A stretch of 64,000 nucleotides of DNA from Escherichia phage Barry. Position numbers and translations under genes: made by a program. Below, piece after piece: positions 2,368-57,079 of this stretch. Position 1 is the stretch's first letter. The number at the start of each line of letters is the position of its first letter. The notes beneath the pieces are model-generated. The model was given only the letters and a program-made list of their open reading frames with translations, did not search any database and was not told where the DNA came from. The stretch is from the sequence record LR880803, one strand, 5' to 3'.

Positions 2368-2446
2368 AGTGCTTGACAAGGGGCTTTGAAGCCCCTTAGA
2401 ATAGCCTCACAAAATGATTTATTAACTAACAAGAGAGAGTAATAAG

Positions 2447-6926: not shown

Positions 6927-7712
6927 ATGGGTATTGTAAAAATCATCAATGGCGATATCTTTGCCGCATTTGATAAAGGTAAGTTTGACATCATTGGTCA
7001 CGGTTGCAACTGTATGAATTTAATGGGTGCAGGTATCGCTGACAAGATTTCTAAACTTTACCCAAAAGCATATGAGACCGATACAGAAGTTTATCTATAT
7101 GCAGATGGTATAGGCCACAAACCCTGTGAAAATTTACTGGGTAATTTCTCTGTAGCACGTTTAAAACAAGGTCGAATAGCTAACCTTTACACTCAGCTTA
7201 AGACTGGTAAAGATGCCCGATACAGTGCTTTAGAATCATCTTTGAAACAGCTTAACAGATACTGTGAAGTTAACCAGTTGAAGAAAGTTGGTCTACCTAT
7301 GATTGGTGCAGGTATCGGTGGGCTAGACCCTCAAGCCGTCACAGTTATCATTAATCAGGTGATGAAGAGTGTAGATGTGTATCTGTATGTCTATGAAGGA
7401 GAGATGTACCACAAGTTACGCTCAGGTTGGAAGAACTACTGTGAACCAGAATACTTTGCAGGTGTAGTAACGTTCACAGACAATACAGTTACCCTCTTCA
7501 GACGAAGAAAAGGTAAGATACATCAAAGTAACCCTCCGGTTGAAAAGATGTCTCTGAGTAACGCTCTAGTTACCCACCTGTCGAAGAGCAATCACAGAAT
7601 TGCAGTAACATTTGGCAGTGATGCAGATACTTATATCTATGCAAGGACTGATGAGGGTATTGAGTTAATCTTCTCTTCACCAGAGCTTACCTTCTTAGAC
7701 GCAAAGAACTAA
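6927..7712 (+). CDS. macro-domain-like protein (putative ADP-ribose binding/processing) with extra C-terminal domain
   Basis: N-terminal INGDIF ... FDIIGHGCNCMNLMGAGIADKI resembles the macro domain GDIT ... DAIVNAAN..LxGGGGV block; motif-level only. Confidence 0.4.
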   Translation: MGIVKIINGDIFAAFDKGKFDIIGHGCNCMNLMGAGIADKISKLYPKAYETDTEVYLYADGIGHKPCENLLGNFSVARLKQGRIANLYTQLKTGKDARYSALESSLKQLNRYCEVNQLKKVGLPMIGAGIGGLDPQAVTVIINQVMKSVDVYLYVYEGEMYHKLRSGWKNYCEPEYFAGVVTFTDNTVTLFRRRKGKIHQSNPPVEKMSLSNALVTHLSKSNHRIAVTFGSDADTYIYARTDEGIELIFSSPELTFLDAKN

Positions 7713-7785
7713 GAAATTTCGTAGTATATTCACAATAGACTAAGCCTTTCTTATCTGGTAAATTTTTCAGGTAAGGAGGGCTTTT

Positions 7786-7966
7786 TCATTTCAGATTTGT
7801 GCAGGTAGAGTTCTGTAGAGAAATCTGTAGAGAGAATTTTAAACTCCAAAGAGAAAATTCATTTTCAAACTGTGCAGGTAATCTCCAAAGAGCTTTTTCA
7901 TTTTCAAAACGTGCAGACCCCGCTCAGGTCGGGCAAGAAAAATCATTTTAGAATTGTGCAGGTAGG
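7786..7966 (+). repeat. four direct copies of a ~24-bp motif (consensus TTTCATTTTCAAAnnGTGCAGGTA) in a 500-bp non-coding region
   Basis: copies near 7789, 7856, 7895 and 7941; CTGTAGAGA also occurs twice between them. Confidence 0.6.
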
Positions 7967-8140
7967 TGGGTGTAGGTGGGGCTGTCGCCATTTCTCACAA
8001 GGCTACCACATCTGAAAATAAAAGTCAACAGAAAAATTTGTAGCGGATTGAAAAATAATTCTTGATTGTAGTTCTGTTTTGTGGTAGTCGCGCGCACCCG
8101 TTTCATTACAATTTTTGCAAAAATATTTTTAAAATTCCTA

Positions 8141-8169
8141 TTGACTCTTTGAGTATGGTTATCTAATAT
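8141..8169 (+). promoter_or_regulatory. sigma70-like promoter upstream of the small-gene array
   Basis: TTGACT - 17 bp - TAATAT. Confidence 0.5.
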
Positions 8170-8219
8170 TTGCATCAGACGGGCAATCAAGCCCACTTCC
8201 TAAACTGGAGAATCTAAAA

Positions 8220-8426
8220 ATGCTTTACAGTCGCGAATTGATGGTTACAACTAACATTAACACAAAGGCAAAACGTTTTTACATGCAAATCTGTGGCGTA
8301 TGGTCCAGAATATCAGAAGCTGACTATTGCAACTATGTAGAAACGGCTATTAATTCGAATTGCTACCTTACAAGAAACACTAAGAAGTTTACAAGACAGA
8401 CAGCAATTTACTACTACGATAAATAA
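8220..8426 (+). CDS. hypothetical small protein
   Basis: 68-aa ORF with leader CTAAACTGGAGAATCTAAAAATG. Confidence 0.4.
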   Translation: MLYSRELMVTTNINTKAKRFYMQICGVWSRISEADYCNYVETAINSNCYLTRNTKKFTRQTAIYYYDK

Positions 8427-8512
8427 AGTACTTTACAAGGGGCTTATAGTTCGATAAAGTAAGCCCCAGATAAAGAGCTTTACTAACTAACCTTAAACTA
8501 GGAGATTCAAAA
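8426..8512 (+). repeat. leader cassette family A, copy 1 (hairpin GGGGCTTA...TAAGCCCC + SD)
   Basis: GTACTTTACAAGGGGCTTATAGTTCGATAAAGTAAGCCCCAGATAAAGAGCTTTAC...GGAGATTCAAAAATG; embedded TTTACA-17-TAAAGT. Confidence 0.7.
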
Positions 8513-8896
8513 ATGGCTTATCGTGCACCGAAATTCATCAACAAAGACAACTTTCGCAAAGTACTGGAGAAGTCACTTGATGAGAATTTTAAAGGCAATA
8601 TTATTGTTGTTCACGCATTCAATTTTAAGTATGATGTAAACGGGAATAGAATCAACCATTACACGGCAACCATGTTAGATGGTACACTATCAAGTGAAAA
8701 AGCCGTACTGAATGCACTAGCAGGACGCGGAAAAGTATTAGTAAGATGCGATAAGCGACGTTATCAGGGTGGCGCATATGGTTATGATGATGCTGTTTAT
8801 CATCTTGAAAATATGGGCTATAAAGTAGAAAAAGCTGGAGTATCGCAAATCATCGGGAGCGATGGTTATGTAACAATCTTCAAAATTAACGAATAA
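8513..8896 (+). CDS. hypothetical protein
   Basis: 127-aa ORF directly after cassette A. Confidence 0.5.
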   Translation: MAYRAPKFINKDNFRKVLEKSLDENFKGNIIVVHAFNFKYDVNGNRINHYTATMLDGTLSSEKAVLNALAGRGKVLVRCDKRRYQGGAYGYDDAVYHLENMGYKVEKAGVSQIIGSDGYVTIFKINE

Positions 8897-8982
8897 AGTA
8901 CTTTACAAGGGGCTTATAGTTCGATAAAGTAAGCCCCAGATAAAGAGCTTTACCACTAAATCCTAAATTGGAGAACTTAAAA
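8896..8982 (+). repeat. leader cassette family A, copy 2
   Basis: near-identical to copy 1. Confidence 0.7.
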
Positions 8983-9276
8983 ATGGCTATTATCAAAAAC
9001 GTTGTAATTGCTGCAAAAACTCGTGATGACGCTCGCGTTATGGCTAAAAAGTTATGCGGGAAAGTGGTTGACAATGGGAAAAAATCTGCTGTAAGATGGG
9101 GCGTAAAGGTTGATAAACAGTTGAAGTTAAAAAATTCACCGATAAACCTTTTTACATGTGTAAACACTATCGGGAAGACAAATGTATACACGAAAAAGGC
9201 ATACATTAGACGCGTAGCATTAACATCCCCCATTCGTACAATGAGAAGTTATGCAAAGCTGAAAAATAACCGATAA
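8983..9276 (+). CDS. hypothetical protein (MAIIKN...)
   Basis: ATG at 8983 follows the cassette SD; track ORF 8968 begins at an in-frame TTG inside the cassette. Confidence 0.5.
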   Translation: MAIIKNVVIAAKTRDDARVMAKKLCGKVVDNGKKSAVRWGVKVDKQLKLKNSPINLFTCVNTIGKTNVYTKKAYIRRVALTSPIRTMRSYAKLKNNR

Positions 9277-9363
9277 AGTACTTTACAAGGGGCTTAAAAG
9301 TTGATATCTTAAGCCCCAGATAAAGAGCTTTACCACTAAATCCTTAAACTAGGAGACTCAAAA
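9276..9363 (+). repeat. leader cassette family A, copy 3 (variant loop, stem preserved)
   Basis: GGGGCTTAA-aagttgatatc-TTAAGCCCC, a compensated 9-bp stem. Confidence 0.7.
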
Positions 9364-9660
9364 ATGAAATTATCGAATAAAGTTCGTGAAAATCTAAGCA
9401 AGTTACTCAACAAAATTGATTTTATCGAGACATCAAGAAATAATCATGATGTTATGGAATGGTTGCACGGCAAAATAAAAGGCCGTCGCGTAGTGATTTG
9501 CTTATGGAATAGTTGCAGGGAGTATAAAAAACCTGTATTGCAAGTAAATATTTATGATGATACTTTTAAAAGTCCAGTAAAGTCTAAAAGTGACTTATTA
9601 GAATCCTATGAGATAACTGTAAATGGCAAAGTATCACGTAAAGAGGAAACACCATGTTAA
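9364..9660 (+). CDS. hypothetical protein
   Basis: 98-aa ORF after cassette SD. Confidence 0.5.
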   Translation: MKLSNKVRENLSKLLNKIDFIETSRNNHDVMEWLHGKIKGRRVVICLWNSCREYKKPVLQVNIYDDTFKSPVKSKSDLLESYEITVNGKVSRKEETPC

Positions 9661-9986
9661 TGACTGGCATCACCGCAATCCTTGCCATTTTCGCGCTATA
9701 TAAGGCATATAAAGCCTATAATCTAGCAAATAAGGCAATCACGCAACAGGTCAATAATAGCCTTGTAATGAGCTTTCTGGAGCGTTTAAGTGATGAACAA
9801 ATAAAACGGTTAGAAATGAGCTTCAGATTTCAATCAAAAACTTATCAAATCAGCGACATTTTCAAAGATGATTTTCAGTTAGTCGATGATTATAATTCTC
9901 TGATAAATGCTTTAAATGTCAGTGACTTAAAAGACTACTACGCTGTAATTGTTCAAGAATTGAGCAAACGAAAAAATTTCTCTTGA
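9654..9986 (+). CDS. hypothetical small membrane protein
   Basis: 110 aa, N-terminal hydrophobic segment GITAILAIFALY; overlaps previous by 7 nt. Confidence 0.4.
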   Translation: MLMTGITAILAIFALYKAYKAYNLANKAITQQVNNSLVMSFLERLSDEQIKRLEMSFRFQSKTYQISDIFKDDFQLVDDYNSLINALNVSDLKDYYAVIVQELSKRKNFS

Positions 9987-10073
9987 TTTTGGTTTTTAAA
10001 ACAAGTAAATTACTAATCAACGGGAGGTAATAACCTCCCCACTAAGTAAAGTCCTTAAACTAGGAGATTCAAA
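9987..10073 (+). repeat. leader cassette family B, copy 1 (hairpin GGGAGG-TAATAA-CCTCCC + SD)
   Basis: TTGATTTTGGTTTTTAAAACAAGTAAATTACTAATCAACGGGAGGTAATAACCTCCCCACTAAGTAAAGTCCTTAAACTAGGAGATTCAAAATG. Confidence 0.7.
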
Positions 10074-10346
10074 ATGTACACTACTAACAACGGTCGCACC
10101 TTAAACGTAACCATTCGTCACTATGTGAACGGTGTAATGCACTTCGAAGATTTACAAGCCGAACAACATATCTTAGATTGGCAACTTGCAGGACTACAAA
10201 AAACTGCTACAGGATACGGGAAAAAGATTCCAACCAGTTGGAAAGTATACTACGAAGGCCGTTTGCGCAGAATTTATCAAGATGTATACAGCAATAGCGC
10301 AACAAGTTACATCATAGTAAAAGGTAAAAAGCTGCATTTAGTGTAA
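10074..10346 (+). CDS. hypothetical protein
   Basis: 90-aa ORF after cassette B. Confidence 0.5.
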   Translation: MYTTNNGRTLNVTIRHYVNGVMHFEDLQAEQHILDWQLAGLQKTATGYGKKIPTSWKVYYEGRLRRIYQDVYSNSATSYIIVKGKKLHLV

Positions 10347-10543
10347 AGTACTTTACAAGGGGCTTATAGTTCGATAAAGTAAGCCCCAGATAAAGAGCTT
10401 TACCACTAAATCCTAAAGCAATAGCGCAACAAGTTACATCATAGTAAAAGGTAAAAAGCTGCATTTAGTGTAAAGTACTTTACAAGGGGCTTATAGTTCG
10501 ATAAAGTAAGCCCCAGATAAAGAGCTTTACCACTAAATCCTAA
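10290..10543 (+). repeat. perfect tandem direct duplication, 2 x 127 bp (3' end of gene 10074..10346 plus cassette A)
   Basis: 10290..10416 and 10417..10543 are identical as read. Confidence 0.8.
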
Positions 10544-10559
10544 ATTGGAGAACTTAAAA

Positions 10560-10964
10560 ATGGCTATTAATAATCGCGAGTTGTCAATCTTAAAAGCACG
10601 TTTGACCGTTAACCGGATTAATGTTATTACGTCATCAGCACCGGACGAAACATTGCACAACATTATTGGGAAGATTCAAAGCGTTATCTTAGACGTTGAA
10701 AACGTAAAAAACTCATTGGCTGACGTTGCAGCAGGTATCACGCTAGACGGTGCACAATATGAAATGTCCGACATGTTAGGCAAATCTAAGGTAATGAATA
10801 AAGAGCTTGATTTGAAAATGTTTCGGTTTGCTGTTAAAGTGTGGCTATCTGTCGAGTATGACGCTAACTTTGCAATCGCTGACTTTTTCGCCACTTGGTT
10901 ACAACGTAATTTGACAAATCATGATTTTCGTGGTATCTGCGATGCAATTTACACAGAACTATAA
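10560..10964 (+). CDS. hypothetical protein (MAINNRELS...)
   Basis: ATG at 10560 after cassette SD; track ORF 10545 starts at an in-frame TTG. Confidence 0.5.
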   Translation: MAINNRELSILKARLTVNRINVITSSAPDETLHNIIGKIQSVILDVENVKNSLADVAAGITLDGAQYEMSDMLGKSKVMNKELDLKMFRFAVKVWLSVEYDANFAIADFFATWLQRNLTNHDFRGICDAIYTEL

Positions 10965-11065
10965 AAATTTCTCTTGATTTTGATTTTTAAAACAAGTAAA
11001 TTACTAATCAACGGGAGGTAATGACCTCCCCACTAAACAAAGTCCTTAAACTAGGAGATTCAAAA
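10965..11065 (+). repeat. leader cassette family B, copy 2
   Basis: same unit as 9987..10073, with GGGAGGTAATGACCTCCCC. Confidence 0.7.
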
Positions 11066-11269
11066 ATGGCTATTATTAACGGTTTAACCATTGAAACTAC
11101 ACACATCAAAGATATTAAAGTCGGTGATGTAGTTCTCTTTCACGGCGTAGAAAAAACCGTCACGGCGAAAGATATTACAGAAGACTCCTTCATGGGTAGG
11201 TCACTCTTCGGTGATTCTTATTGCTTAGGTTACCGTGCAGTTTTAAAAGTTGTAAAAAATAACCGATAA
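11066..11269 (+). CDS. hypothetical small protein (MAIINGL...)
   Basis: ATG at 11066 follows cassette SD; track ORF 11021 starts upstream inside the cassette. Confidence 0.45.
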   Translation: MAIINGLTIETTHIKDIKVGDVVLFHGVEKTVTAKDITEDSFMGRSLFGDSYCLGYRAVLKVVKNNR

Positions 11270-11354
11270 AGTACTTTACAAGGGGCTTATAGTTCGATAA
11301 AGTAAGCCCCAGATAAAGAGCTTTACCACTAAATCCTAAACTGGAGATTCTAAA
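11270..11354 (+). repeat. leader cassette family A, copy 6
   Basis: same unit as 8426..8512. Confidence 0.7.
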
Positions 11355-11897
11355 ATGAAATGCTTTCACGGTACTACCCAAGAAAATTTCCTCAACCTGA
11401 TTAATAACGGTGACAAGCCATCAGGTGCATGGAATTGTTCGGATATGGACGGCAATTTTTACGTGTACCCAGAAAATAAAATCTATGGCGACGATGAGGA
11501 AGAGATAATCTCTGAAGGTATCCAGCAAGCGTTAGGTAATGCCACTATTACGGCCGCTTTCCAGATGAAAACACAAAATATTGTTATCTTAGAACTTGAT
11601 ATCCCAGAGGATGACCTAAATGACGATTATTCTTGTGATAATATGTCTGGCGTAGCAAGTTTTACAGAATACTTCGATTTAAATTGGATTAAAAAGGTTT
11701 ACGTAACAGAGTTTAACGCTATGTATTCGCCTTTTTGTCTTCCTTCATTGGATAACCCAAATTTAAATTATCTTGATGAGTCTCTGGAGCTTCTTGCTAA
11801 AAGTGTCCAACAGTCGGACAGTATTCAGGTTTTTTGTGACATCATGGACACACTAACGGGAAACATCGCAGAAGAGGATTTAAAGAGCTTTTTCTAA
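11355..11897 (+). CDS. hypothetical acidic protein
   Basis: 180-aa ORF after cassette SD. Confidence 0.5.
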   Translation: MKCFHGTTQENFLNLINNGDKPSGAWNCSDMDGNFYVYPENKIYGDDEEEIISEGIQQALGNATITAAFQMKTQNIVILELDIPEDDLNDDYSCDNMSGVASFTEYFDLNWIKKVYVTEFNAMYSPFCLPSLDNPNLNYLDESLELLAKSVQQSDSIQVFCDIMDTLTGNIAEEDLKSFF

Positions 11898-11930
11898 AAA
11901 CCTATGCAATCGCCTTATAAACACTGATTA

Positions 11931-11949
11931 GCCCCTCACAGGGGCTTTT
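11931..11949 (+). terminator. rho-independent terminator
   Basis: GCCCCT-CACA-GGGGC followed by TTTT. Confidence 0.55.
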
Positions 11950-11963
11950 AAGAGGCTTAAATC

Positions 11964-12197
11964 ATGCTTACAACCGTTTATCTTATCCTTTCTATTTGTA
12001 ATGGTCATTCATGTGATTTTAAAGGGCTTGAGGAGTTTACAGGAAGTAAAGAAAATGCTGTTCAGGTCTGTCAGATAGCAAGGCAAGACTACCCCGCCAG
12101 TGATGACATACAATGTTACTTTAAGACAGAAGATGAAGATGGTATCTATTTCGATAGTGTAGACGGTCAATATGAAATAATTATAGAAAAAGACTAG
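11964..12197 (+). CDS. hypothetical small protein
   Basis: 77-aa ORF; weak SD. Confidence 0.35.
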   Translation: MLTTVYLILSICNGHSCDFKGLEEFTGSKENAVQVCQIARQDYPASDDIQCYFKTEDEDGIYFDSVDGQYEIIIEKD

Positions 12198-12287
12198 ACA
12201 AGCCTGATAAAAATCTGTAAATTACTAATCAACGGGGAGGGAATGACCTTCCCCACTAAACAAAATCCTAAACTGGAGATTCAAAAA
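12198..12287 (+). repeat. leader cassette family B, copy 3 (stem variant GGGGAGGG/CCTTCCCC)
   Basis: TGTAAATTACTAATCAACGGGGAGGGAATGACCTTCCCCACTAAACAAAATCCTAAACTGGAGATTCAAAAAATG. Confidence 0.7.
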
Positions 12288-12629
12288 ATGGCTTATGTAA
12301 CCGTAATTACTGATAAAGAGGGTTCATCTTGGTCAACTCAGGTTAGTGATAAGATGTCGCCTATGCAGTGCCTAAAATACTTTGAACAGTGGAACAAAGG
12401 CGAGGACACAAGCCCCTTTCAAGTGATGCAGATTATCCATGTAGACAATGAAGGGAAGAAAACGACTTTAAACAGCGAGTTCTATGCAACCCGATTTGAA
12501 ACGAGATGTAAAACGATGAAGTTATTACGTGAATCCGGTTATGCCCATATCGCCGCGTTAATCTGGGATGACCTGCTAAAAAGTCAGCGTATCAGCTATG
12601 TAAAACCTGAAAAAATATTCATCAGTTAA
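12288..12629 (+). CDS. hypothetical protein (MAYVTVITDKEG...)
   Basis: ATG at 12288 after cassette SD. Confidence 0.45.
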   Translation: MAYVTVITDKEGSSWSTQVSDKMSPMQCLKYFEQWNKGEDTSPFQVMQIIHVDNEGKKTTLNSEFYATRFETRCKTMKLLRESGYAHIAALIWDDLLKSQRISYVKPEKIFIS

Positions 12630-12650
12630 TCAATAACTTACAAAAAACTT

Positions 12651-12679
12651 TCAAAAAAGTATTGACAACGCCCCTTGAC
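12651..12679 (+). promoter_or_regulatory. candidate sigma70-like promoter (tandem TTGACA boxes)
   Basis: TTGACA-acgcccc-TTGACA ... TAGATT in a 220-bp gap. Confidence 0.3.
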
Positions 12680-12769
12680 ATTGGTAGATTTGTTCGAGGG
12701 GGTTTATCTAAAAGGGATTAACTTAAAAGATTCTTTATAGATAAACTTAAAAAATTGCTTGCAATCAGA

Positions 12770-12850
12770 TATCAAAACAAGTAAATTACTAATCAACGGG
12801 AGGTAATAGCCTCCCCACTAAACAAAGTCCTTAAACTAGGAGATTCAAAA
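12770..12850 (+). repeat. leader cassette family B, copy 4
   Basis: AAAACAAGTAAATTACTAATCAACGGGAGGTAATAGCCTCCCCACTAAACAAAGTCCTTAAACTAGGAGATTCAAAAATG. Confidence 0.7.
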
Positions 12851-13381
12851 ATGAACAAATTTCAAGCTATCAACTACATTCGCTCAAATGCTGTAATGTC
12901 TAAGCCTGTTAAAGATACCTATGAATTTCGCTGCAATGGGGTACACTTTGCAACCATCACTAAATCAGAAAACGGGGCTTATTACGTTCATCGTCGTAAT
13001 GTTGCAACCGTTGTAGTCTCTCACTTTATGCAAGCTGTAGCAGAGTTATTACCGCTATTCTTAGGGATTTACTTGGATGAGTGTAAAAACGTTCACAACC
13101 ACGTTAAAAACCTTTTAAACGGTTATAAAATGGCTTATGAACGTTCTATCAAGTCACTAAACAAGTTTTACAATGCACCTGCAAATACTGTTTCAATGGC
13201 TTATGATGTAAACGGTGAGTTAGTTAGTCTCTTTAAAGTGGAAGAGATTAAACTGTATAATTTACGTCCTAGTGGTTACTCTAAGACTCTTGGTGAAGGT
13301 TTAACGTTCAATATCAAGAACTTAGAAAAAACTTTAAAAGACATTGAAAAAGATATTGACGAGACACTTAAAAGTCTGTAA
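12851..13381 (+). CDS. hypothetical protein
   Basis: 176-aa ORF after cassette SD. Confidence 0.5.
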   Translation: MNKFQAINYIRSNAVMSKPVKDTYEFRCNGVHFATITKSENGAYYVHRRNVATVVVSHFMQAVAELLPLFLGIYLDECKNVHNHVKNLLNGYKMAYERSIKSLNKFYNAPANTVSMAYDVNGELVSLFKVEEIKLYNLRPSGYSKTLGEGLTFNIKNLEKTLKDIEKDIDETLKSL

Positions 13382-13447
13382 ATTGTCAATCAACGGGGAG
13401 GGAATGACCTTCCCCACTAAATAAAGTCCTAAACTGGAGTTATCAAG
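13376..13447 (+). repeat. leader cassette family B, copy 5
   Basis: stop codon of the upstream gene lies inside the unit (cTGTAAATTG...). Confidence 0.7.
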
Positions 13448-13711
13448 ATGGAAAACGTAGAATTAACCACACTTTTACAAATTGCAACCGACAAAGAAAA
13501 CGTAGCTTTATTTCACCGCATCGAAAGTGATTTGTTCAATGGTGAAATCATCAAAGAGTCTTACGAGGTTGTTGGATTCAAAGATGGTAAAACATTTGGA
13601 TTCTTTGACCTCGAAAAAGGCAACGCTGTTACAAAATATGATGTTTTATCTTGTGAGATTCTTACAAAATACAACGAAAAAAGGCTTGCAACATACGCCA
13701 ATATGCAGTAA
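13448..13711 (+). CDS. hypothetical small protein
   Basis: 87-aa ORF after cassette SD. Confidence 0.45.
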   Translation: MENVELTTLLQIATDKENVALFHRIESDLFNGEIIKESYEVVGFKDGKTFGFFDLEKGNAVTKYDVLSCEILTKYNEKRLATYANMQ

Positions 13712-13777
13712 ATTACTAATCAACGGGAGGCGATAACCTCCCCACTAAATAAAACCCTTAAACTAGGAGATTCAAAA
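13706..13777 (+). repeat. leader cassette family B, copy 6
   Basis: CAGTAAATTACTAATCAACGGGAGGCGATAACCTCCCCACTAAATAAAACCCTTAAACTAGGAGATTCAAAAATG. Confidence 0.7.
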
Positions 13778-14026
13778 ATGGCAACTATCCGCGCTACTGT
13801 TAACGAGTTCGGTTTTTCCTCTCTGGATGTTAAATTTGACATTGCAGGCACTGATAACGCCTTTGAAATGGTGAAAGGTCTTATCAGTCAGACCATCAAA
13901 GACTATAATCCTTCTGATGAGTTCTGGAAAGAAACAAAACAGGAAGTTCTCAAAGAGGGTTATTCTTATCACTATTGGGGTGAAAAAATTGTCTCTCTGT
14001 ACTACGACAAAGAAGGCACTAACTAA
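13778..14026 (+). CDS. hypothetical small protein
   Basis: 82-aa ORF after cassette SD; followed by terminator. Confidence 0.5.
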   Translation: MATIRATVNEFGFSSLDVKFDIAGTDNAFEMVKGLISQTIKDYNPSDEFWKETKQEVLKEGYSYHYWGEKIVSLYYDKEGTN

Positions 14027-14066
14027 ACGCCGCAGCGGGGCTAAATAGCCCCAGATACCTTTATAC

Positions 14067-14088
14067 AGCCCCTCACAGGGGCTTTTTT
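14067..14088 (+). terminator. rho-independent terminator closing the small-gene array
   Basis: AGCCCCT-CACA-GGGGC followed by TTTTTT; a second hairpin GGGGCTAAATAGCCCC lies just upstream. Confidence 0.6.
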
Positions 14089-14092
14089 ACGT

Positions 14093-15708
14093 CTATCCAA
14101 TCCTTATACAATCCCTTTCCTCACCTTTTCAGAATCTTATCAGACCTTAAAAGCAATAACTCTATAGTCTACTCTATAGCCTTTTATCAAATCAACTTAA
14201 ATATAAGCCAATAACCCCAGAAAGGGGATGGCCCACTTAAACGCTCTATAAAGCGCTATAACAACCTTATCAATCTAACTTAAGGGATTGCATTAACTCA
14301 CCCTTAAAAGCTCTTTACAGGGCTTTATAGAGGCTTAAAAGAATCTTATAAGGTTATGAGCTTTATTGTCTCGTTAGTATCTTGTGAATAGTTAAACAAT
14401 CCCCTTGATAGTCACTAAAAAGTATGTTATAGGGGCTATAAAGTTACTTCAAAGTTACGTAAAAGGGGCTATAAAGTTACGTAAATGCTAACCCCCTTAA
14501 CATTTTCTTAACAATTTCTTAACAATCCCTACATAGTTATGCTTGTTAGAGACTTGTTAGCCCCTTGTTAAATCTCTGTTAAAATCACGTAAAAGCCTTG
14601 TAAGAGTCTTTGACATAGCCTTAAAAGCTCCTGTAAAGCCCTATAAAGAGGTATCTGTACAGTTGGGTGATAGATACTAGGAAGAGACTTAAAAGAGCTT
14701 ATAAAGAGCTATAGAGAGCTTTTAAGAGGTATGTTTAAAGAATCACTAAGAAAGGAAAGGGAACGATAAGAAAGAAGTAGTGACCATGTTAATAGCTTGT
14801 TAAAAAGATTAAACACTTGTTAGAAACTTGTTAATTATCTTAATTGGTATTGTTACCAATCCCTACAAAATAACTCTTAAAAATTAACTTGTTAGCTCTT
14901 GTTAGTCATCTGTTAAGCCTCTGTAAAGACTATGTATCAACTATTAAGAAACTGTTAAGCCCTTGTTAGTTCTGTTAAGAATCTGTTAAGACCTTTGAAG
15001 AGTTGTTAAGAAGATGTGAGAGCTGTTAAGAGATTGTTAAGGATATTTTAAAATTTTGCAAAGTACTTGTAAGGGAGCTGTTAAGGGCTACCAAGCAGAT
15101 ATACATCCTAATCAGATATTTTTCAGTTCCTTCAAAGACCCTAAAAAATGACTTGATAGTCCTATTTTATAAAAATTTTAAGATTCTGAATAATTACCTA
15201 TACAGTCTTTTAAAAATACAGGTAGAAACAGGCTTATAAGATACCTTGTTAGTACCGTGTTAGACCTTGTGAGATAAGGTCTGTAAAGATATCCCTGTTA
15301 AGTTTGTTAAAACAGTCTATATAGAGGCTTAGTAATACCTAGTGAACACCTATAGAGAGTGTCATAGCTGACATAGAGATTAAGAGGTGTATAGGGGCTT
15401 CTAAGAGGGTATAGAGAGACGGTTAAGGTGATTGTATAGGTTGTTAAGAAGGCTTGTTAGAAGAGTGTTTAGAAGGCTTGTTAGAGGGCTTGTTAGAAGG
15501 GTTATACAGAAGGGCTATTAAGACCACTAGATAGTTACTAAGATACTATATAGTACTATATAACTATATATATAGAGAGTAAGATTAAGAAGGTTGTTAA
15601 GAAGGATAGATATTTTGTTCACATATAATGGTGACCCAGAGGTTGGGACAACCGATAAAATTTTATAAAAATTAAAAAGCCCCCAATTAAGGAGGCTCTT
15701 AAGATATT
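14093..15708. repeat. 1.6-kb ORF-free, AT-rich region packed with degenerate short motifs (CTTAAAAG, TATAAAGAGG, CTTGTTAG/CTGTTAAG, GGCTTGTTAGAAG)
   Basis: no ORF of 60 aa or more on either strand; lies between convergent + and - gene blocks. Confidence 0.6.
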
Positions 15709-16302
15709 TTAAATCAGTGTTTCCAGAACTGCCTTCAGTGATGACTTGGTTGTCTGATAAAAATGAGTAAATCCATTGTTGTTATCGAATATCTGCATCA
15801 TGATATCATCACCCTTGATTGGGTAAACTCGGATATCATAGTGAAAACCATTAAAGACACAAGAGCCATTACAGAATGCACTAAAGTCATCAACTGAGAT
15901 ATACTCTTCATGTCCTGTGATTTTTATACAAATGCCTTTACTTGGTCTCTTAGGGTTGATATCTTCCATCACAGACATACTCTGTCCACCAAGAGATACC
16001 ATAGTGACCACTTTACGGTTCTTCTGTTTAAAGTACATCTTAACTTTCTGCAAAGTGTCTTCATAGAACGGATAAGACCTTTCTACAAAGATTCCTTCAA
16101 GTGGCTCTTTACCATTTTCAACTTCTCTGTTATGCCGTACTGCAAAGATAATTTGTTCGAACCAGTCAAGATTTTCTTCGGAGAGTGCTTCTCGAATATC
16201 ACTCCAGTCAAGGACTAGGTAGTTACCTTCAACTTCTTTTAAGTTATCTTTTTCCATAGCTATCACACCATTATCGTAAAACTTGGTAGGCTGGTACTGC
16301 AA
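15709..16302 (-). CDS. hypothetical protein
   Basis: 197-aa ORF. Confidence 0.5.
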   Translation of the reverse strand: MQYQPTKFYDNGVIAMEKDNLKEVEGNYLVLDWSDIREALSEENLDWFEQIIFAVRHNREVENGKEPLEGIFVERSYPFYEDTLQKVKMYFKQKNRKVVTMVSLGGQSMSVMEDINPKRPSKGICIKITGHEEYISVDDFSAFCNGSCVFNGFHYDIRVYPIKGDDIMMQIFDNNNGFTHFYQTTKSSLKAVLETLI

Positions 16303-16735
16303 ACTTGTTGCTGTTGTTCTTAATAAGGTCTTCTTCTGTTACTAAGAATGTAATCCCACATAAGTGCGTATAGTGGCTGTCATACTCAAATATTTTAAGT
16401 AAATATTTACCATCATGATAGACAGATTCTACTACACCTTTTGCAACAATCTTTCCAGTCTTGAAATCTTTAAGAGGGTATGTATTACCGACTCTAGGGA
16501 CTGTTTTCATCTCAGGTTCTTTTAGCTTCTCACCAACTTCTACATCACCTAGCAAGTGAGAACTTTCAAAAGCTACATATTGCATATAAGCATCTGAGCA
16601 TTCCCAGATAAAACAATGTACAAGAGCCTTAGCAGCATGTCTTGAACAATTCAACTTATCACAAATCTCTTTGTACATTTCATCTTTAGTTGAGTTGTCA
16701 AGCATTGCTTTTTGAACGACTTCTTTAATTTTCAT
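16271..16735 (-). CDS. hypothetical protein
   Basis: 154-aa ORF. Confidence 0.5.
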   Translation of the reverse strand: MKIKEVVQKAMLDNSTKDEMYKEICDKLNCSRHAAKALVHCFIWECSDAYMQYVAFESSHLLGDVEVGEKLKEPEMKTVPRVGNTYPLKDFKTGKIVAKGVVESVYHDGKYLLKIFEYDSHYTHLCGITFLVTEEDLIKNNSNKFAVPAYQVLR

Positions 16736-56749: not shown

Positions 56750-57079
56750 TTAATCTGCCAACCTTAAATTAAAATTAACACCAAATTTTTCACATACTTC
56801 CAACATATACTCAAGGGAGACATTACCAGTGAGATGAATTATGTTGGACACACGAGCCTGAGAGATACCACAAATTTTAGCAACTTGCTCTTGAGAAAGA
56901 CCTCTGGATTTAATCTCTCTCTTAAAACGATGTGCAACGAAGTCTCTCATTTCGTCTACATCCATTGGACAAATATAACTCTCCATTTCAGCCTCTCTAT
57001 CAGCCTCCCAATCATCTTGTGGGGCATAAGGGTCAAAAACCTCATTCATCTTTCTTCTTCCGTTTGCGTGAAGTATCAA
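56750..57079 (-). CDS. helix-turn-helix DNA-binding protein (XRE-like)
   Basis: C-terminal LSQEQVAKICGISQARVSNI is a typical HTH. Confidence 0.5.
   Translation of the reverse strand: MILHANGRRKMNEVFDPYAPQDDWEADREAEMESYICPMDVDEMRDFVAHRFKREIKSRGLSQEQVAKICGISQARVSNIIHLTGNVSLEYMLEVCEKFGVNFNLRLAD

What the first reader, a model, noticed from the sequence alone, without database searches (positions are those of the whole stretch)
8141..14092. Array of about 14 small genes, each behind one of two conserved hairpin-plus-SD leader cassettes
Seen: cassette A (six copies) and cassette B (six copies) both end in ...CCTAAACTAGGAGATTCAAAAATG, and each carries a hairpin whose stem is kept by compensatory changes (GGGAGG/CCTCCC versus GGGGAGGG/CCTTCCCC; GGGGCTTA/TAAGCCCC versus GGGGCTTAA/TTAAGCCCC), which argues for selection on structure. 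Cassette A also holds TTTACA-17-TAAAGT. The genes behind them are 68-180 aa with no motif I recognise. Inference: a modular early-gene locus (host takeover or anti-defence candidates) whose leader acts as promoter and/or RNA-processing or translational operator; the GGAG inside every SD recalls the T4 RegB target.
Basis: partly seen in the sequence, partly recalled or inferred. Interest (0 to 1): 0.75.

Follow-up and report, generated by a model that had tools for sequence, protein, structure and literature searches.

The report
Portable promoter–hairpin cassettes shuffling phage genes
A Felix O1-like phage places 14 small accessory genes behind two families of ready-made "stop-to-start" spacers, each with a host-type promoter, an RNA hairpin and a standard ribosome site. 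The spacers resemble the PeSL cassettes of T4-like phages, appear to let genes be swapped in and out between relatives, and have not been described for this phage group.

Summary
The window is a Felixounavirus. Between 8141 and 13780 (+ strand only) there are 6 type-A and 7 type-B intergenic cassettes ahead of 12 of the 14 small genes.

Across 27 relatives (about 120 A and 100 B copies), both types show a sigma-70 promoter signature:
- Type A: TTTACA-17-TAnnnT.
- Type B: TTGnnn-17-TAAATT.

The fixed positions hold even where the surrounding sequence is unrelated.

In A the promoter sits inside a 20-bp three-tier hairpin that starts at the upstream stop codon. That hairpin shows compensatory swaps and many G·U pairs but almost no A·C pairs, which points to an RNA structure on the + strand. 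In B the hairpin lies 2–3 nt after the predicted transcript start.

Gene content shuffles at the cassettes: 78% of homology breakpoints fall in the 21% of sequence they occupy. The same gene can carry either cassette type.

No RegB homologue exists in this phage group. The array genes are dispensable in a SUSP1 knock-down screen. One gene has an ADP-ribosyltransferase-like fold, and one is a virion protein in Felix O1.

Best reading: PeSL-like mobile regulatory cassettes in a new phage lineage, with two new architectures. The roles of the hairpins remain inferred.

The parts
7744..7786 (+). Intrinsic terminator that closes the upstream unit (after the Macro-domain gene 6927-7712). Equivalent to Felix O1 t13.
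   Evidence: the t13 sequence is in PMC3185647 Table 2.
8141..8222 (+). First promoter cassette, a diverged type B. It has TTGACT (8141-8146), a 17-nt spacer, TAATAT (8164-8169), hairpin GGGC-AATCAA-GCCC (8181-8194), SD 8207-8210 and ATG 8220.
   Evidence: Model R2 scores it 30.8 bits, E 0.0016. In relatives the same slot holds a canonical B hairpin (L002:11214-11312).
8220..8426 (+). Gene b (68 aa, PHROG 5293). It is present or absent among relatives.
8424..8515 (+). Type-A cassette 1. Stop TAA 8424; -35 TTTACA 8432-8437; -10 TAAAGT 8455-8460; inner stem 8439-8447/8460-8467; outer stem ends at 8483; SD 8501; ATG 8513.
8513..8896 (+). Gene c (127 aa, PHROG 4495). It sits behind an A cassette here and behind a B cassette in many relatives.
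8894..8985 (+). Type-A cassette 2. -35 at 8902-8907; -10 at 8925-8930; hairpin 8909-8937; SD 8970; ATG 8983.
8983..9276 (+). Gene d (97 aa, PHROG 5089). It ends in KNNR-stop, the same tail as gene i. It is duplicated in L024.
   Evidence: (D10/D15).
9274..9366 (+). Type-A cassette 3, a variant. Stem GGGGCTTAA/TTAAGCCCC; -10 TATCTT at 9305-9310; SD 9352; ATG 9364.
9364..9986 (+). Genes e (9364-9660, 98 aa) and f (9654-9986, 110 aa). They overlap by 7 nt and have no cassette between them. The 3' end of f encodes the UP-like A/T tract and the -35 of the next B cassette.
9983..10076 (+). Type-B cassette 1. TTGATT 9983-9988, 17-nt spacer, TAAATT 10006-10011, ACTAATCAAC, hairpin GGGAGG-TAATAA-CCTCCC 10022-10040, SD 10063, ATG 10074. 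The predicted start is at A 10019/10020.
10074..10346 (+). Gene g (90 aa, PHROG 3436).
10287..10540 (+). A 127-bp tandem duplication (two copies, 99% identical). Each copy holds the last 57 nt of gene g plus a type-A promoter and hairpin. The first A copy (10344-10416) lacks an SD and ATG. The junction is CCTAAA|GCAATAG.
   Evidence: (D1). It is absent from all relatives: 19 loci break at 10417, and adrianh has a single copy.
10471..10562 (+). Type-A cassette 5 (complete). -35 at 10479; -10 at 10502; hairpin 10486-10514; SD 10547; ATG 10560.
10560..10964 (+). Gene h (134 aa, PHROG 4327).
10974..11068 (+). Type-B cassette 2. TTGATT 10974, TAAATT 10997, hairpin 11013-11031, SD 11054, ATG 11066.
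   Evidence: The homologous site is annotated as a sigma-70-like promoter in phage AYO145A.
11066..11269 (+). Gene i (67 aa, PHROG 3623). It is absent from some relatives.
11267..11357 (+). Type-A cassette 6. -35 at 11275; -10 at 11298; hairpin 11282-11310; SD 11343; ATG 11355.
11355..11897 (+). Gene j (180 aa, PHROG 3303), a candidate ADP-ribosyltransferase/Tpt1-like fold with conserved H5-G-T, Y36/Y38 and E80.
11930..11949 (+). Terminator-like hairpin AGCCCCTCACAGGGGCTTTT, identical to the one at 14067. It splits the array into two read-through blocks.
   Evidence: (D18).
11964..12197 (+). Gene k (77 aa, PHROG 4640). It has no cassette and its own weak SD.
12195..12290 (+). Type-B cassette 3. 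TAGACA 12195 (its TAG is the stop codon of gene k), TAAATT 12218, hairpin GGGGAGGG/CCTTCCCC 12234-12254 with one G·U, SD 12275, ATG 12288.
12288..12629 (+). Gene l (113 aa, PHROG 4318). It sits behind a B cassette here and behind an A cassette in L004, L024, L025 and L027.
12662..12690 (+). An additional strong sigma-70-like promoter, TTGACA-17-TAGATT, in the long spacer before cassette B4.
   Evidence: The homologous site is annotated as a promoter in AYO145A.
12759..12853 (+). Type-B cassette 4. TTGCAA 12759, TAAATT 12782, hairpin 12798-12816, SD 12839, ATG 12851.
12851..13381 (+). Gene m (176 aa, PHROG 4725). Its last codons contain the -35 TTGACG, and its stop codon TAA is the start of the -10 TAAATT of the next cassette.
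13356..13450 (+). Type-B cassette 5. -35 at 13356-13361 (inside gene m), -10 at 13379-13384, hairpin 13395-13415, SD 13436, ATG 13448.
13448..13711 (+). Gene n (87 aa, PHROG 7022). It is absent from several relatives. Its stop codon is again the TAA of the next -10 box.
13686..13780 (+). Type-B cassette 6. TTGCAA 13686 (inside gene n), TAAATT 13709, hairpin 13725-13743, SD 13766, ATG 13778.
13778..14026 (+). Gene o (82 aa, PHROG 4559), the homologue of Felix O1 gp23 (Felix01p049). That 9.7-kDa protein was detected in Felix O1 virions by mass spectrometry.
14067..14086 (+). Intrinsic terminator that ends the array (equivalent to Felix O1 t23).

Best explanation
The array is the hyperplastic accessory-gene region of a Felix O1-like phage. 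It is built from two families of portable "stop-codon-to-start-codon" regulatory cassettes that work like the PeSL (promoter-early stem-loop) cassettes of T4-like phages.

Each cassette gives the gene behind it three things.

(1) A host sigma-70 promoter: type A is TTTACA-N17-TAnnnT, and type B is TTGnnn-N17-TAAATT.

(2) An RNA stem-loop.

(3) A standardised A-rich leader with the SD segment CCT(T)AAAYT(A)GGAG, 8-9 nt before the ATG.

Because every gene carries the same flanks, recombination between cassettes can delete, insert, duplicate or re-pair genes without breaking their expression. The two types share their last 35 nt or so, so A and B can also recombine with each other.

The two hairpins sit differently relative to the promoter, so they probably act differently.

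In type B the predicted start is the invariant AA of ATCAAC. The GGGAGG/CCUCCC hairpin would then begin 2-3 nt from the 5' end. That geometry is known to protect E. coli mRNAs from 5'-end-dependent decay, as in the ompA-type 5' stem-loop. This step is inferred.

In type A the promoter lies inside a 20-bp three-tier hairpin that begins at the upstream stop codon. The predicted start is the invariant A just after the 3' arm. The hairpin would therefore exist only in read-through RNA from upstream. There it most likely marks and protects the 3' end of the upstream cistron, or is cut by a double-strand-specific RNase in the way T7 early RNA is cut. This step is also inferred.

Shown here: the anatomy, the promoter-type conservation, structural selection on the + strand, breakpoint clustering, and confinement to one locus.

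Inferred: promoter activity, start sites and the roles of the hairpins.
For: Identity and context:
- The window is a Felixounavirus. 251 phage records match the region.
- Cassettes occur only in this roughly 6-kb array, both in the window and in the complete adrianh genome.

Promoters:
- Type A, 123 copies in 23 genomes: the -35 TTTACA is invariant. The hexamer 17 nt downstream is TAnnnT in about 116 of 123 copies, with 11 different middles. It lies in the hairpin loop, and only its TA is invariant there.
- Type B, about 100 copies: at least six unrelated upstream contexts, some of them coding sequence, all keep TTG at -35 and T, A, T of the -10 at 17-nt spacing.
- Stop codons are embedded in the -35 or -10 boxes.
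- AYO145A annotators independently called one B promoter.
- The Felix O1 '39-bp repeat' is TTGACA-N17-TAAATT (PMC3185647).

Structure:
- Folds of -21 to -24 kcal/mol, z -4.6 to -6.1, for A.
- Inner-stem positions 7-9 swap between U-A/A-U/C-G. Position 5 is C-G in 19 and U·G in 23 distinct variants, with one A·C in the whole stem.
- On the model-based alignment, 96.3% of cells are paired and the covariation score is 0.110 against 0.062±0.004 in shuffles (0 of 500 reach it). The outer pair is G-C 62 / U-A 10.
- B stems show G·U in 14 of 27 variants and never A·C.

Modularity:
- Genes r, w, u, G, D, J, K, v and H come and go.
- Genes c, j and l are found behind either cassette type.
- Gene d is duplicated in one relative.
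- 130 of 167 BLAST segment ends (73 of 101 distinct positions) fall in cassettes that cover 21% of the region.
- An 'empty' cassette exists in L024.
- Cassettes at different positions in one genome (0.855 identity) are more alike than positional counterparts across clades (0.825).

Expression and dispensability:
- Felix O1 ORFs 16, 20, 21 and 22 peak at 5 min.
- All SUSP1 array genes are 'Not Fit' in CRISPRi-ART.

The PeSL definition matches in most respects (PMC2839356, PMC4122927).
Against: - No transcript 5' or 3' ends are available for any Felix O1-like phage, so promoter activity and start sites are predictions.
- The -10 hexamers are only 4/6 matches to consensus. The neutral consensus scan is only modestly enriched in this AT-rich region (29 sites against 19.8±4.5 expected).
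- Felix O1 ORFs 14, 17, 19 and 23 peaked at 25 min rather than 5 min, though by end-point RT-PCR.
- The middle helix of type A never varies and overlaps the -35, so it says nothing about structure.
- Type-B covariation consists only of G-C/G·U changes and length changes.
- Neither hairpin is followed by a U tract. The terminator role shown for RB49 PeSLs therefore cannot simply be transferred.
- Breakpoint clustering could be inflated because BLAST segments tend to end in repeats and because the genomes are related.
- Top-strand single-stranded DNA would tolerate G·T in the same way, so RNA versus ssDNA is not fully resolved.
Confidence: 0.68

Rival explanations
1. The type-A element is mainly an intercistronic RNA-processing site of the T7 early RNase III kind. 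Long read-through transcripts would be cut in the internal loop of the three-tier hairpin. That leaves the upper stem as a protective 3' end for the upstream mRNA. It also releases a downstream mRNA whose 5' end (A-GAUAAAGAG...) matches that of transcripts started at the embedded promoter.
For: - The hairpin has 20 bp arranged as lower stem (6+5 bp), a 3x3 internal loop and a 9-bp upper stem. It starts exactly at the stop codon.
- The outer helix is 97% paired, with a G-C to U-A swap in 10 distinct sequences, and U·G is the majority at one pair.
- The 3' strand AGATAAAGAG is invariant although it lies downstream of the promoter.
- There is no terminator between 7786 and 11930, so read-through RNA must contain these hairpins.
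- T7 early spacers likewise carry a repeated conserved hairpin next to minor E. coli promoters (the RNase III site positions are from my memory of Dunn & Studier 1983).
Against: - There is no sequence similarity to T7 sites and no cleavage data.
- A ribosome terminating at the embedded UAA would melt the lower stem.
- The lower-stem 5' strand is also the -35 box and the stop codon, which could explain its conservation.
- This reading does not exclude the promoter or shuffling roles. It is a refinement rather than a true alternative.
Confidence: 0.25
2. The hairpins are transcription terminators or attenuators, exactly as shown for RB49 PeSLs. Each gene would then be an insulated mono-cistronic unit.
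For: - PeSL stem-loops (GGGG...CCCC) terminated transcription in reporter assays (PMC2839356).
- The cassettes here have G-run/C-run stems and sit right after stop codons.
Against: - No U tract follows either hairpin. The terminator scan finds only 7744, 14067 and, weakly, 11930.
- The type-B hairpin lies downstream of its own promoter, so it would terminate the very transcript it heads.
- The type-A loop is 11-13 nt, which is unfavourable for intrinsic termination.
Confidence: 0.15
3. The conserved palindromes act at the DNA level as operators. TAAAG-nn-CTTTA occurs twice in type A, about 50 bp apart, flanking the promoter. A phage-encoded dimeric regulator, such as the XRE-type HTH protein at window 56753-57049, would bind them to shut the array off after the early phase.
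For: - Two 12-bp inverted repeats bracket the -35 and the +3..+16 region. Both are nearly invariant.
- The phage encodes a small HTH protein annotated as a transcriptional regulator.
- Whichard et al. state that temporal control in Felix O1 is unexplained.
Against: - The observed covariation links the 5' half of site 1 with the 3' half of site 2 (G-C to U-A). This is what a hairpin predicts, not two independent palindromes.
- The strong G·U over A·C asymmetry is not expected for duplex DNA recognition.
- Type B has no such palindromes.
Confidence: 0.12
4. The leaders are targets of a RegB-like endoribonuclease that cleaves GGAG in early Shine-Dalgarno sequences.
For: Every cassette has GGAG in its SD, and the genes are probably early.
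Against: - GGAG is the generic SD core.
- T4 RegB has no detectable homologue in the window or in the complete adrianh genome (tblastn at E<=10 finds nothing).
- The 1,138 phage records with RegB hits have T4-like genome sizes in every row shown.
Confidence: 0.03
5. The imperfect palindromes are recombination sites for a dedicated recombinase or nuclease, making the array an integron-like gene-capture system. They would be neither ordinary homology patches nor RNA elements.
For: - An array of small ORFans, each followed by a roughly 60-nt imperfect palindrome, resembles integron cassettes with attC sites.
- Breakpoints cluster in the elements.
- The PeSL authors also speculated about a specific DNA-binding protein.
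- G·T tolerance would also fit folded top-strand ssDNA.
Against: - No integrase or tyrosine recombinase is annotated in the complete relative genome.
- No attC core (GTTRRRY/RYYYAAC) is visible in the cassette sequence (read directly).
- The cassettes carry their own promoters, unlike integron cassettes.
- Breakpoints are spread along the whole cassette rather than at one crossover point.
Confidence: 0.05

Closest known systems
PeSL (promoter-early stem-loop) mobile regulatory cassettes of T4-like phages RB49/phi1, PST/T4 and nt-1/KVP40 (Arbiol et al. 2010, PMC2839356; Comeau et al. 2014, PMC4122927)
   Same: [quoted passage not shown]
- A sigma-70-type early promoter with 17-nt spacing. The PST/T4 -35 TTTACW is the same as type A's TTTACA.
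- A GGGG...CCCC stem-loop.
- An SD and start codon at the 3' end.
- Clustering in a hyperplastic region of small ORFans.
- Insertions, deletions and replacements between close relatives that break at the cassettes.
   Different: - The host lineage is Ounavirinae, not Straboviridae.
- Two distinct cassette families coexist and share only their 3' third.
- The stem-loop is not upstream of the promoter. It encloses the promoter (A) or follows the start site (B).
- No U tract follows the hairpins, so a terminator role is doubtful.
- Type A has an extended three-tier hairpin.
- Mini-circles and promoter or terminator activity are untested here.
T7 early-region RNase III processing sites (R0.3, R0.5, R1, R1.1, R1.3), which lie beside minor E. 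coli promoters B and C
   Same: - Repeated, mutually similar hairpins in the spacers between early genes of a read-through transcript.
- Promoters lie in the same spacers.
- The lower stem / internal loop / upper stem layout is comparable to type A.
   Different: - No sequence similarity.
- Cleavage is unproven here.
- The T7 spacers are not known as gene-shuffling linkers.
- In type A the promoter lies inside the hairpin.
5'-terminal stabilising stem-loops of E. coli mRNAs (ompA-type; Emory, Bouvet & Belasco 1992, cited from memory)
   Same: In type B, a stable hairpin is predicted to begin 2-3 nt from the transcript's 5' end, followed by an unstructured A-rich leader and the SD.
   Different: The start site is not mapped. 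The hairpin here is a purine-arm/pyrimidine-arm (GGGAGG/CCUCCC) stem that resembles an SD/anti-SD pair. A stabilising effect is untested.
Integron gene cassettes with attC sites
   Same: A tandem array of small, mostly unknown genes, each associated with an imperfect palindromic element of about 60 nt. Gene content varies between relatives.
   Different: - No integrase.
- No attC core motifs.
- The cassettes carry their own promoters and SDs.
- The elements sit between the stop and the start and are part of the mRNA leader.
The 57-bp and 39-bp 'direct repeats' listed for Felix O1 (Whichard et al. 2010, PMC3185647)
   Same: They are the same sequences. The 57-bp repeat is the core of type A. 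The 39-bp repeat is the type-B promoter (TTGACA-N17-TAAATT-ACACATCAAC).
   Different: They were reported only as repeats between genes 15/16, 19/20, 18/19 and 20/21. No promoter, hairpin or shuffling interpretation was given. The paper stated that promoters and temporal control in this region were unknown.

Membership tests
PeSL cassettes (T4-like phages) | [quoted passage not shown] | tested here: met
   All six A copies start at the stop codon. B copies embed the stop codon in the -35 or -10 box. All copies end at the ATG.
PeSL cassettes (T4-like phages) | A sigma-70-like early promoter (-35, about 17 nt, -10). | tested here: met
   This is a sequence-level test only. TTTACA is invariant and TAnnnT is kept in about 95% of 123 A copies. 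TTG and TA...T are fixed in about 97 of 100 B copies despite unrelated spacers. Promoter activity was not measured.
PeSL cassettes (T4-like phages) | A stable stem-loop, typically G-run/C-run. | tested here: met
PeSL cassettes (T4-like phages) | The stem-loop lies just upstream of the promoter and acts as a terminator or attenuator. | tested here: not met
   The position differs: the hairpin encloses the -10 in A and follows the predicted start in B. No U tract follows either hairpin. Termination itself cannot be tested with these tools.
PeSL cassettes (T4-like phages) | The cassettes flank variable ORFans in a hyperplastic region, and indels between relatives break at them. | tested here: met
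   Module map. 78% of breakpoints fall in 21% of the sequence. An empty cassette exists.
PeSL cassettes (T4-like phages) | Formation of cassette-plus-ORF mini-circles during infection. | not testable with these tools
   This needs inverse PCR or long reads from infected cells.
PeSL cassettes (T4-like phages) | Occurs in T4-like myoviruses. | tested here: not met
   The window and all relatives are Ounavirinae (Felixounavirus, Suspvirus).
Rho-independent terminator | A GC-rich hairpin followed directly by a U tract. | tested here: not met
   The scan finds terminators only at 7742-7783 and 14067-14083 on the + strand. The cassette hairpins are followed by AGATAAAG or ACTAAA.
RNase III processing site (T7 early type) | About two turns of interrupted double helix in an intercistronic spacer of a read-through early transcript. 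| tested here: met
   For type A only: 20 bp in three tiers. No terminator lies upstream within the block.
RNase III processing site (T7 early type) | Specific cleavage by host RNase III. | not testable with these tools
   This needs an rnc mutant comparison or in-vitro cleavage.
RegB target sites (T4) | The phage encodes the RegB endoribonuclease. | tested here: not met
   tblastn of T4 RegB against the window and the complete adrianh genome gives no hit at E<=10. Hits in the phage collection have T4-like genome sizes in every row shown.
Integron attC cassette array | An adjacent tyrosine-recombinase integrase, attC core sites and promoterless cassettes. | tested here: not met
   No integrase is annotated in the complete relative genome. 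No GTTRRRY/RYYYAAC is visible in the cassette sequence. Each cassette has its own promoter.
5'-terminal stabilising stem-loop | The hairpin begins within a few nucleotides of the primary 5' end and prolongs mRNA half-life. | tested here: inconclusive
   The geometry fits if transcription starts at the invariant AA, 8-9 nt after the -10. Neither the start site nor the half-life is known.
Rfam families | A match to any curated RNA family. | tested here: not met
   Only two sub-threshold chance hits (E 0.63 and 0.94) in 7600-16500.

The most novel reading that the evidence does not exclude
The type-A unit is a dual-coded 62-nt element. At the DNA level it is a sigma-70 promoter. At the RNA level, in read-through transcripts, it is a processing and stability hairpin. 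It would be arranged so that promoter-initiated and processed mRNAs acquire the same 5' end and the same standard leader. Together with type B, it would form a phage-borne, recombinase-free 'plug-and-play' gene-capture platform. That platform would have arisen in Ounavirinae independently of the PeSLs of T4-like phages. It would deliver, among other things, an ADP-ribosyltransferase-like enzyme and a virion-packaged small protein.
Probability: 0.2. Interest if true: 0.7.

Novelty: new variant of a known kind. Interest (0 to 1): 0.5.

Why it matters
Felix O1-like phages are widely used for Salmonella and E. coli typing, biocontrol and therapy. Their transcription programme is essentially unknown. 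The 2010 genome paper could not find promoters for this region or explain its temporal control.

This analysis gives 13 concrete promoter predictions with nucleotide-level start sites. It also gives a rationale for why gene content in this region differs between otherwise near-identical phages.

It extends the PeSL idea, in which standard regulatory linkers double as recombination handles for accessory genes, beyond T4-like phages. That suggests such cassettes are a general, convergent solution for rapid turnover of host-adaptation genes.

For engineering, the cassettes mark natural, expression-ready insertion sites, and the array genes are dispensable on laboratory hosts. The ADP-ribosyltransferase-like gene j, next to a Macro-domain gene, is a specific lead for host takeover or counter-defence.

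Tried and rejected
- RegB hypothesis: I fetched T4 regB and searched the phage collection and, locally, the window plus a complete relative genome. There is no homologue in Felix O1-like phages. Rejected.
- Known RNA families: the Rfam scan was empty.
- Intrinsic terminators at the cassettes: no U tracts.
- Distant relatives L029/L030 (anchor 41% identical): different gene context, no analogous cassette array. The system is clade-restricted.
I replaced it with a strict model-based alignment and my own outside-in pairing counts.
- SUSP1 gp010 and gp024, validated as important in CRISPRi-ART, turned out to be structural-module genes, not array genes.
- Pfam gave nothing for any of the 14 proteins. 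PHROGs gave only 'unknown function' families.
- The T7 RefSeq record lacks RNase III site annotation. The T7 comparison therefore rests on folding the spacers and on remembered site positions.
- The PhageMaP Bas63 paper names counter-defence genes, but I could not map its gene numbers onto the array, so I did not use it.
- Antisense promoter in type A: inspection of the reverse complement shows no credible -35/-10 pair.
- Transposon or MITE reading: there are no terminal inverted repeats or target duplications, the orientation is strict, and placement is exactly stop-to-start.

Full report
WHAT THE WINDOW IS. The 6-kb region matches 251 phage records, nearly all named as Escherichia, Salmonella, Shigella or Citrobacter phages of the Felix O1 group, at 88-95% identity. 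The annotated relatives AYO145A, adrianh and SUSP1 are Ounavirinae. The region lies between a Macro-domain gene (6927-7712; Pfam Macro E 1e-7) with its terminator (7744-7786) and a terminator at 14067-14086. It corresponds to Felix O1 genes 14-23.

CHECK OF THE OBSERVATION.

Type A has six copies, each starting at the stop codon of the upstream gene (8424, 8894, 9274, 10344, 10471, 11267). Type B has six clear copies (-35 boxes at 9983, 10974, 12195, 12759, 13356, 13686). A seventh, diverged copy heads the array at 8141-8222 and was recovered by the type-B covariance model.

Twelve of the 14 ORFs (67-180 aa) sit directly behind a cassette. Gene f overlaps gene e, and gene k follows a terminator-like hairpin at 11930-11949. 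Motif and model searches find the cassettes nowhere else in the 64-kb window or in the complete 88-kb genome of phage adrianh, and only on the + strand.

Whichard et al. (2010) had listed the cores of both elements in Felix O1 as 57-bp and 39-bp 'direct repeats'. They gave no interpretation and stated that promoters and temporal control there were unknown (PMC3185647).

ANATOMY. In type A the unit reads TAA-AGTAC-TTTACA-N-GGGGCTTA(T)-loop-(A)TAAGCCCC-AGATAAAGAGCTTTAC-CACTAAATCC-TAAAYTGGAG-N8-ATG. The TAA is the stop codon. TTTACA lies exactly 17 nt before a TAnnnT hexamer that sits in the loop and 3' arm. As RNA, the whole 59 nt from the stop codon folds into a three-tier hairpin: 6 bp, an A/A mismatch, 5 bp, a 3x3 internal loop, then 9 bp with an 11-nt loop. 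The energy is -21.5 to -24.6 kcal/mol and z is -3.5 to -6.1.

In type B the unit reads TTGnnn-N17-TAAATT-ACTAATCAAC-GGGAGG-loop-CCTCCC-CACTAAAYAAAGTCCTTAAACTAGGAG-N8-ATG. The hairpin energy is -13.6 to -17.9 kcal/mol. Stop codons of upstream genes are embedded in the -35 box (TGA in TTGATT, TAG in TAGACA) or are the TAA of the -10 TAAATT.

The last 35 nt or so (CACTAAA...CCT(T)AAAYT(A)GGAG...AAAATG) are shared by both types.

COMPARATIVE EVIDENCE FOR PROMOTERS. I fetched 29 loci anchored on the Macro-domain gene. Those whose anchor is at least 63% identical carry the array, and L027 is SUSP1.

Among 123 type-A copies (76-82 distinct), TTTACA is invariant. The hexamer at 17-nt spacing is TAnnnT in about 116, with eleven different middles (TAAAGT, TATCTT, TAAGAT, TAGTAT, TATGAT, TACCTT...). 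Most of the rest fit an 18-nt spacer. Within the otherwise variable loop, only that TA is invariant.

Among about 100 type-B copies, the sequence upstream of the -10 falls into at least six unrelated families, some of them coding sequence of the upstream gene. Even so, T and G of TTG at -35, and T, A, T of the -10, stay fixed at 17-nt spacing.

This pattern is the signature of sigma-70 promoters: the contact bases are conserved, and the spacer is free in sequence but fixed in length. It is hard to explain otherwise. One B promoter and the extra promoter at 12662-12690 were independently annotated in AYO145A. Promoter activity itself is not shown here.

COMPARATIVE EVIDENCE FOR STRUCTURE. For the type-A inner stem, positions 1-4 are invariant G-C. 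Position 5 is C-G in 19 and U·G in 23 distinct variants. Positions 7, 8 and 9 show true swaps: U-A 34 / A-U 10; A-U 32 / U-A 8; and five pair types at position 9. Only one A·C occurs in the whole stem.

On a covariance-model alignment of 122 copies, 96.3% of cells pair. The covariation score is 0.110 against 0.062±0.004 in column shuffles (0 of 500 reach it), and it exceeds all slid-register controls. The outer helix has one pair with G-C 62 / U-A 10 / G·U 3, and another pair where U·G is the majority. The middle helix (CUUUA/UAAAG) never varies and overlaps the -35, so it is uninformative.

The tool warns that related sequences can beat shuffles without any structure. The argument therefore rests mainly on the multiple pair types and on the G·U over A·C asymmetry. 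That asymmetry favours a structure on the + strand (RNA, or less likely top-strand ssDNA) over a duplex-DNA palindrome.

For type B the stem always has a purine 5' arm and a pyrimidine 3' arm. Variation is G-C to G·U (14 of 27 variants have a G·U, none an A·C) plus coupled lengthening of both arms. This is consistent with RNA pairing but is weak as covariation.

In the shared SD segment, CCT...TGGAG (175 copies) and CCTT...TAGGAG (96 copies) never occur in mixed form. A 3-4-bp SD-masking stem would explain this, but the two sites are only 5 nt apart, so linkage by descent is an equally good explanation.

WHERE THE HAIRPINS SIT RELATIVE TO PREDICTED STARTS. With the usual 7-9-nt distance from the -10, type-A transcripts should start at the invariant A just after the 3' arm (for example 8468 or 8938). 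They would then lack the hairpin, which would exist only in RNA reading through from upstream.

Type-B transcripts should start at the invariant AA of ATCAAC (for example 10019/10020). That would put the hairpin 2-3 nt from the 5' end.

There is no intrinsic terminator between 7786 and 11930, or between 11949 and 14067, so read-through RNA carrying the type-A hairpins must exist.

From established knowledge, a 5'-terminal stem-loop protects E. coli mRNA from 5'-end-dependent decay, and T7 early RNA is cut at repeated intercistronic hairpins by RNase III. On that basis I infer a 5' stabiliser role for B and a 3'-end protection or processing role for A. Folding the T7 early spacers shows the same general idea of a repeated conserved hairpin beside minor host promoters, but there is no sequence similarity. 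These roles are hypotheses.

EVIDENCE FOR MODULAR SHUFFLING. I clustered the ORFs of 25 loci into families and labelled each with its leader type.
- Genes r, w, u, G, D, J, K, v and H are present in some phages and absent in others.
- Genes b, i and n also come and go.
- Gene d is duplicated in L024.
- Genes c, j and l are found behind type A in some genomes and behind type B in others.

In BLAST comparisons of window 7713-14100 with 26 relatives, 130 of 167 internal segment ends (73 of 101 distinct positions) fall inside cassettes that occupy 21% of the sequence (binomial p about 4e-55, though the data are not independent).

L024 contains an 'empty' cassette whose ATG is fused directly to the CTTTACA of the next cassette. 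The window itself carries a 127-bp tandem duplication of [3' end of gene g + type-A promoter and hairpin] that none of the relatives has.

Cassette homology also extends a few codons into the flanking genes. Genes d and i share the tail KNNR-stop, and genes d, h and i start with ATGGCTATTA.

Type-A cassettes at different positions in one genome are more alike (0.855) than positional counterparts in the other clade (0.825, against 0.812 for non-counterparts). Positional ancestry has thus been largely erased, as expected if cassettes exchange sequence.

WHAT THE GENES ARE. None of the 14 proteins matches Pfam. Each matches one PHROG of unknown function, so they are conserved coding genes.

In Felix O1, ORFs 16, 20, 21 and 22 of this block peak at 5 min, and ORFs 14, 17, 19 and 23 peak at 25 min, by end-point RT-PCR.

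All 17 SUSP1 array genes (agp095-agp111) are 'Not Fit' in the CRISPRi-ART screen (PMC11879866 supplement). They are therefore dispensable on a laboratory host. This holds even though the guides target the near-identical ribosome-site regions and may hit several genes at once (that last point is my inference).

Gene o corresponds to Felix O1 gp23, a 9.7-kDa protein found in virions.

RIVALS. The RegB idea fails its defining test, because these phages have no RegB homologue. A terminator role, as shown for RB49 PeSLs, is doubtful because no U tract follows the hairpins and the B hairpin follows its own promoter.

A DNA-operator reading of the two TAAAG-nn-CTTTA palindromes remains possible, and a small HTH protein is encoded at 56753-57049. 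It is disfavoured by the cross-palindrome covariation and the G·U asymmetry.

An integron-like, enzyme-driven capture system is not excluded. However, there is no integrase, there are no attC cores, and breakpoints are scattered along the cassette.

COMPARISON WITH WHAT IS KNOWN. The closest described system is the PeSL of T4-like phages. PeSLs share the stop-to-ATG span, the sigma-70 early promoter, the G-run/C-run stem-loop, the SD and ATG at the 3' end, the location among variable ORFans and the breakpoints at the cassettes.

The differences here are the lineage (Ounavirinae), two coexisting architectures, the position of the hairpin (enclosing or following the promoter rather than preceding it), the lack of terminator features and the three-tier hairpin of type A.

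No paper in the searchable library links PeSLs with Felix O1-like phages, and Felixounavirus genome papers do not interpret these elements. I therefore classify this as a new variant of a known kind.

VERDICT. Interest is moderate at 0.5. This is a well-supported extension of an existing concept, with concrete, testable start-site and processing predictions, plus a side lead on an ADP-ribosyltransferase-like early gene.

Noticed in passing
[not shown]
   Followed up: partly
window 13778-14026 (+): The last array gene (82 aa) is the homologue of Felix O1 gp23, a 9.7-kDa protein detected in purified virions by mass spectrometry. A small virion-packaged product of an accessory-gene array recalls the T4 internal proteins, but this was not tested.
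   Followed up: partly
window 10287-10540 (+): A 127-bp tandem duplication (99% identical) of the 3' end of gene g plus a type-A promoter and hairpin. It is unique to this phage among 27 relatives. The junction CCTAAA|GCAATAG has only 1-3 nt of microhomology. The result is two tandem type-A promoters ahead of gene h.
   Followed up: yes
L024 7348-7492: An 'empty' cassette: a complete type-A unit whose ATG runs straight into the CTTTACA of the next type-A unit. Window gene b begins ATGCTTTACA, the same 7-mer as the -35 box. This suggests precise gene loss through that short repeat.
   Followed up: partly
window 14100-16400: About 2.3 kb without credible ORFs, between the array and the convergent minus-strand unit. 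It is packed with short direct repeats (CTTGTTAG, TGTTAAG, TATAAAG/TATAGAG families at 11-12-nt and 33-nt periods). Phage adrianh annotates a repeat_region there. It is possibly a replication origin or a protein-binding array.
   Followed up: no
window 7786-7965 (+): Three to four copies of TCATTTT(C)ARANTGTGCAGGTA, spaced 73-84 nt apart, in the 430-nt non-coding stretch between the terminator at 7744-7786 and the first array promoter at 8141.
   Followed up: no
window 2362-2400 (+): A look-alike of type A outside the array: TAAAGTGC-TTGACA-A-GGGGCTTTGAAGCCCC-TTAGAAT. Here a short G/C hairpin fills the spacer between a consensus -35 and a -10-like hexamer.
   Followed up: no
window 56753-57049 (-): A 99-aa protein with a C-terminal XRE/Cro-type helix-turn-helix motif (...GLSQEQVAKICGISQARVSNIIN...), annotated in relatives as a transcriptional regulatory protein. 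It is a candidate binder of the TAAAG-nn-CTTTA palindromes or a regulator of early shut-off.
   Followed up: no
window 11930-11949 and 14067-14086 (+): Two identical 20-nt terminator hairpins (AGCCCCTCACAGGGGCTTTT). One splits the array and the other ends it. This is another repeated regulatory module in the same locus.
   Followed up: partly
window 8198-13769, SD segments of all cassettes: Two forms of the ribosome-site segment occur: CCT-AAAYT-GGAG and CCTT-AAACT-AGGAG. The extra T and the extra A always occur together (175 against 96 copies across genomes, none mixed). Together they lengthen a small SD-masking stem from 3 to 4 bp.
   Followed up: partly
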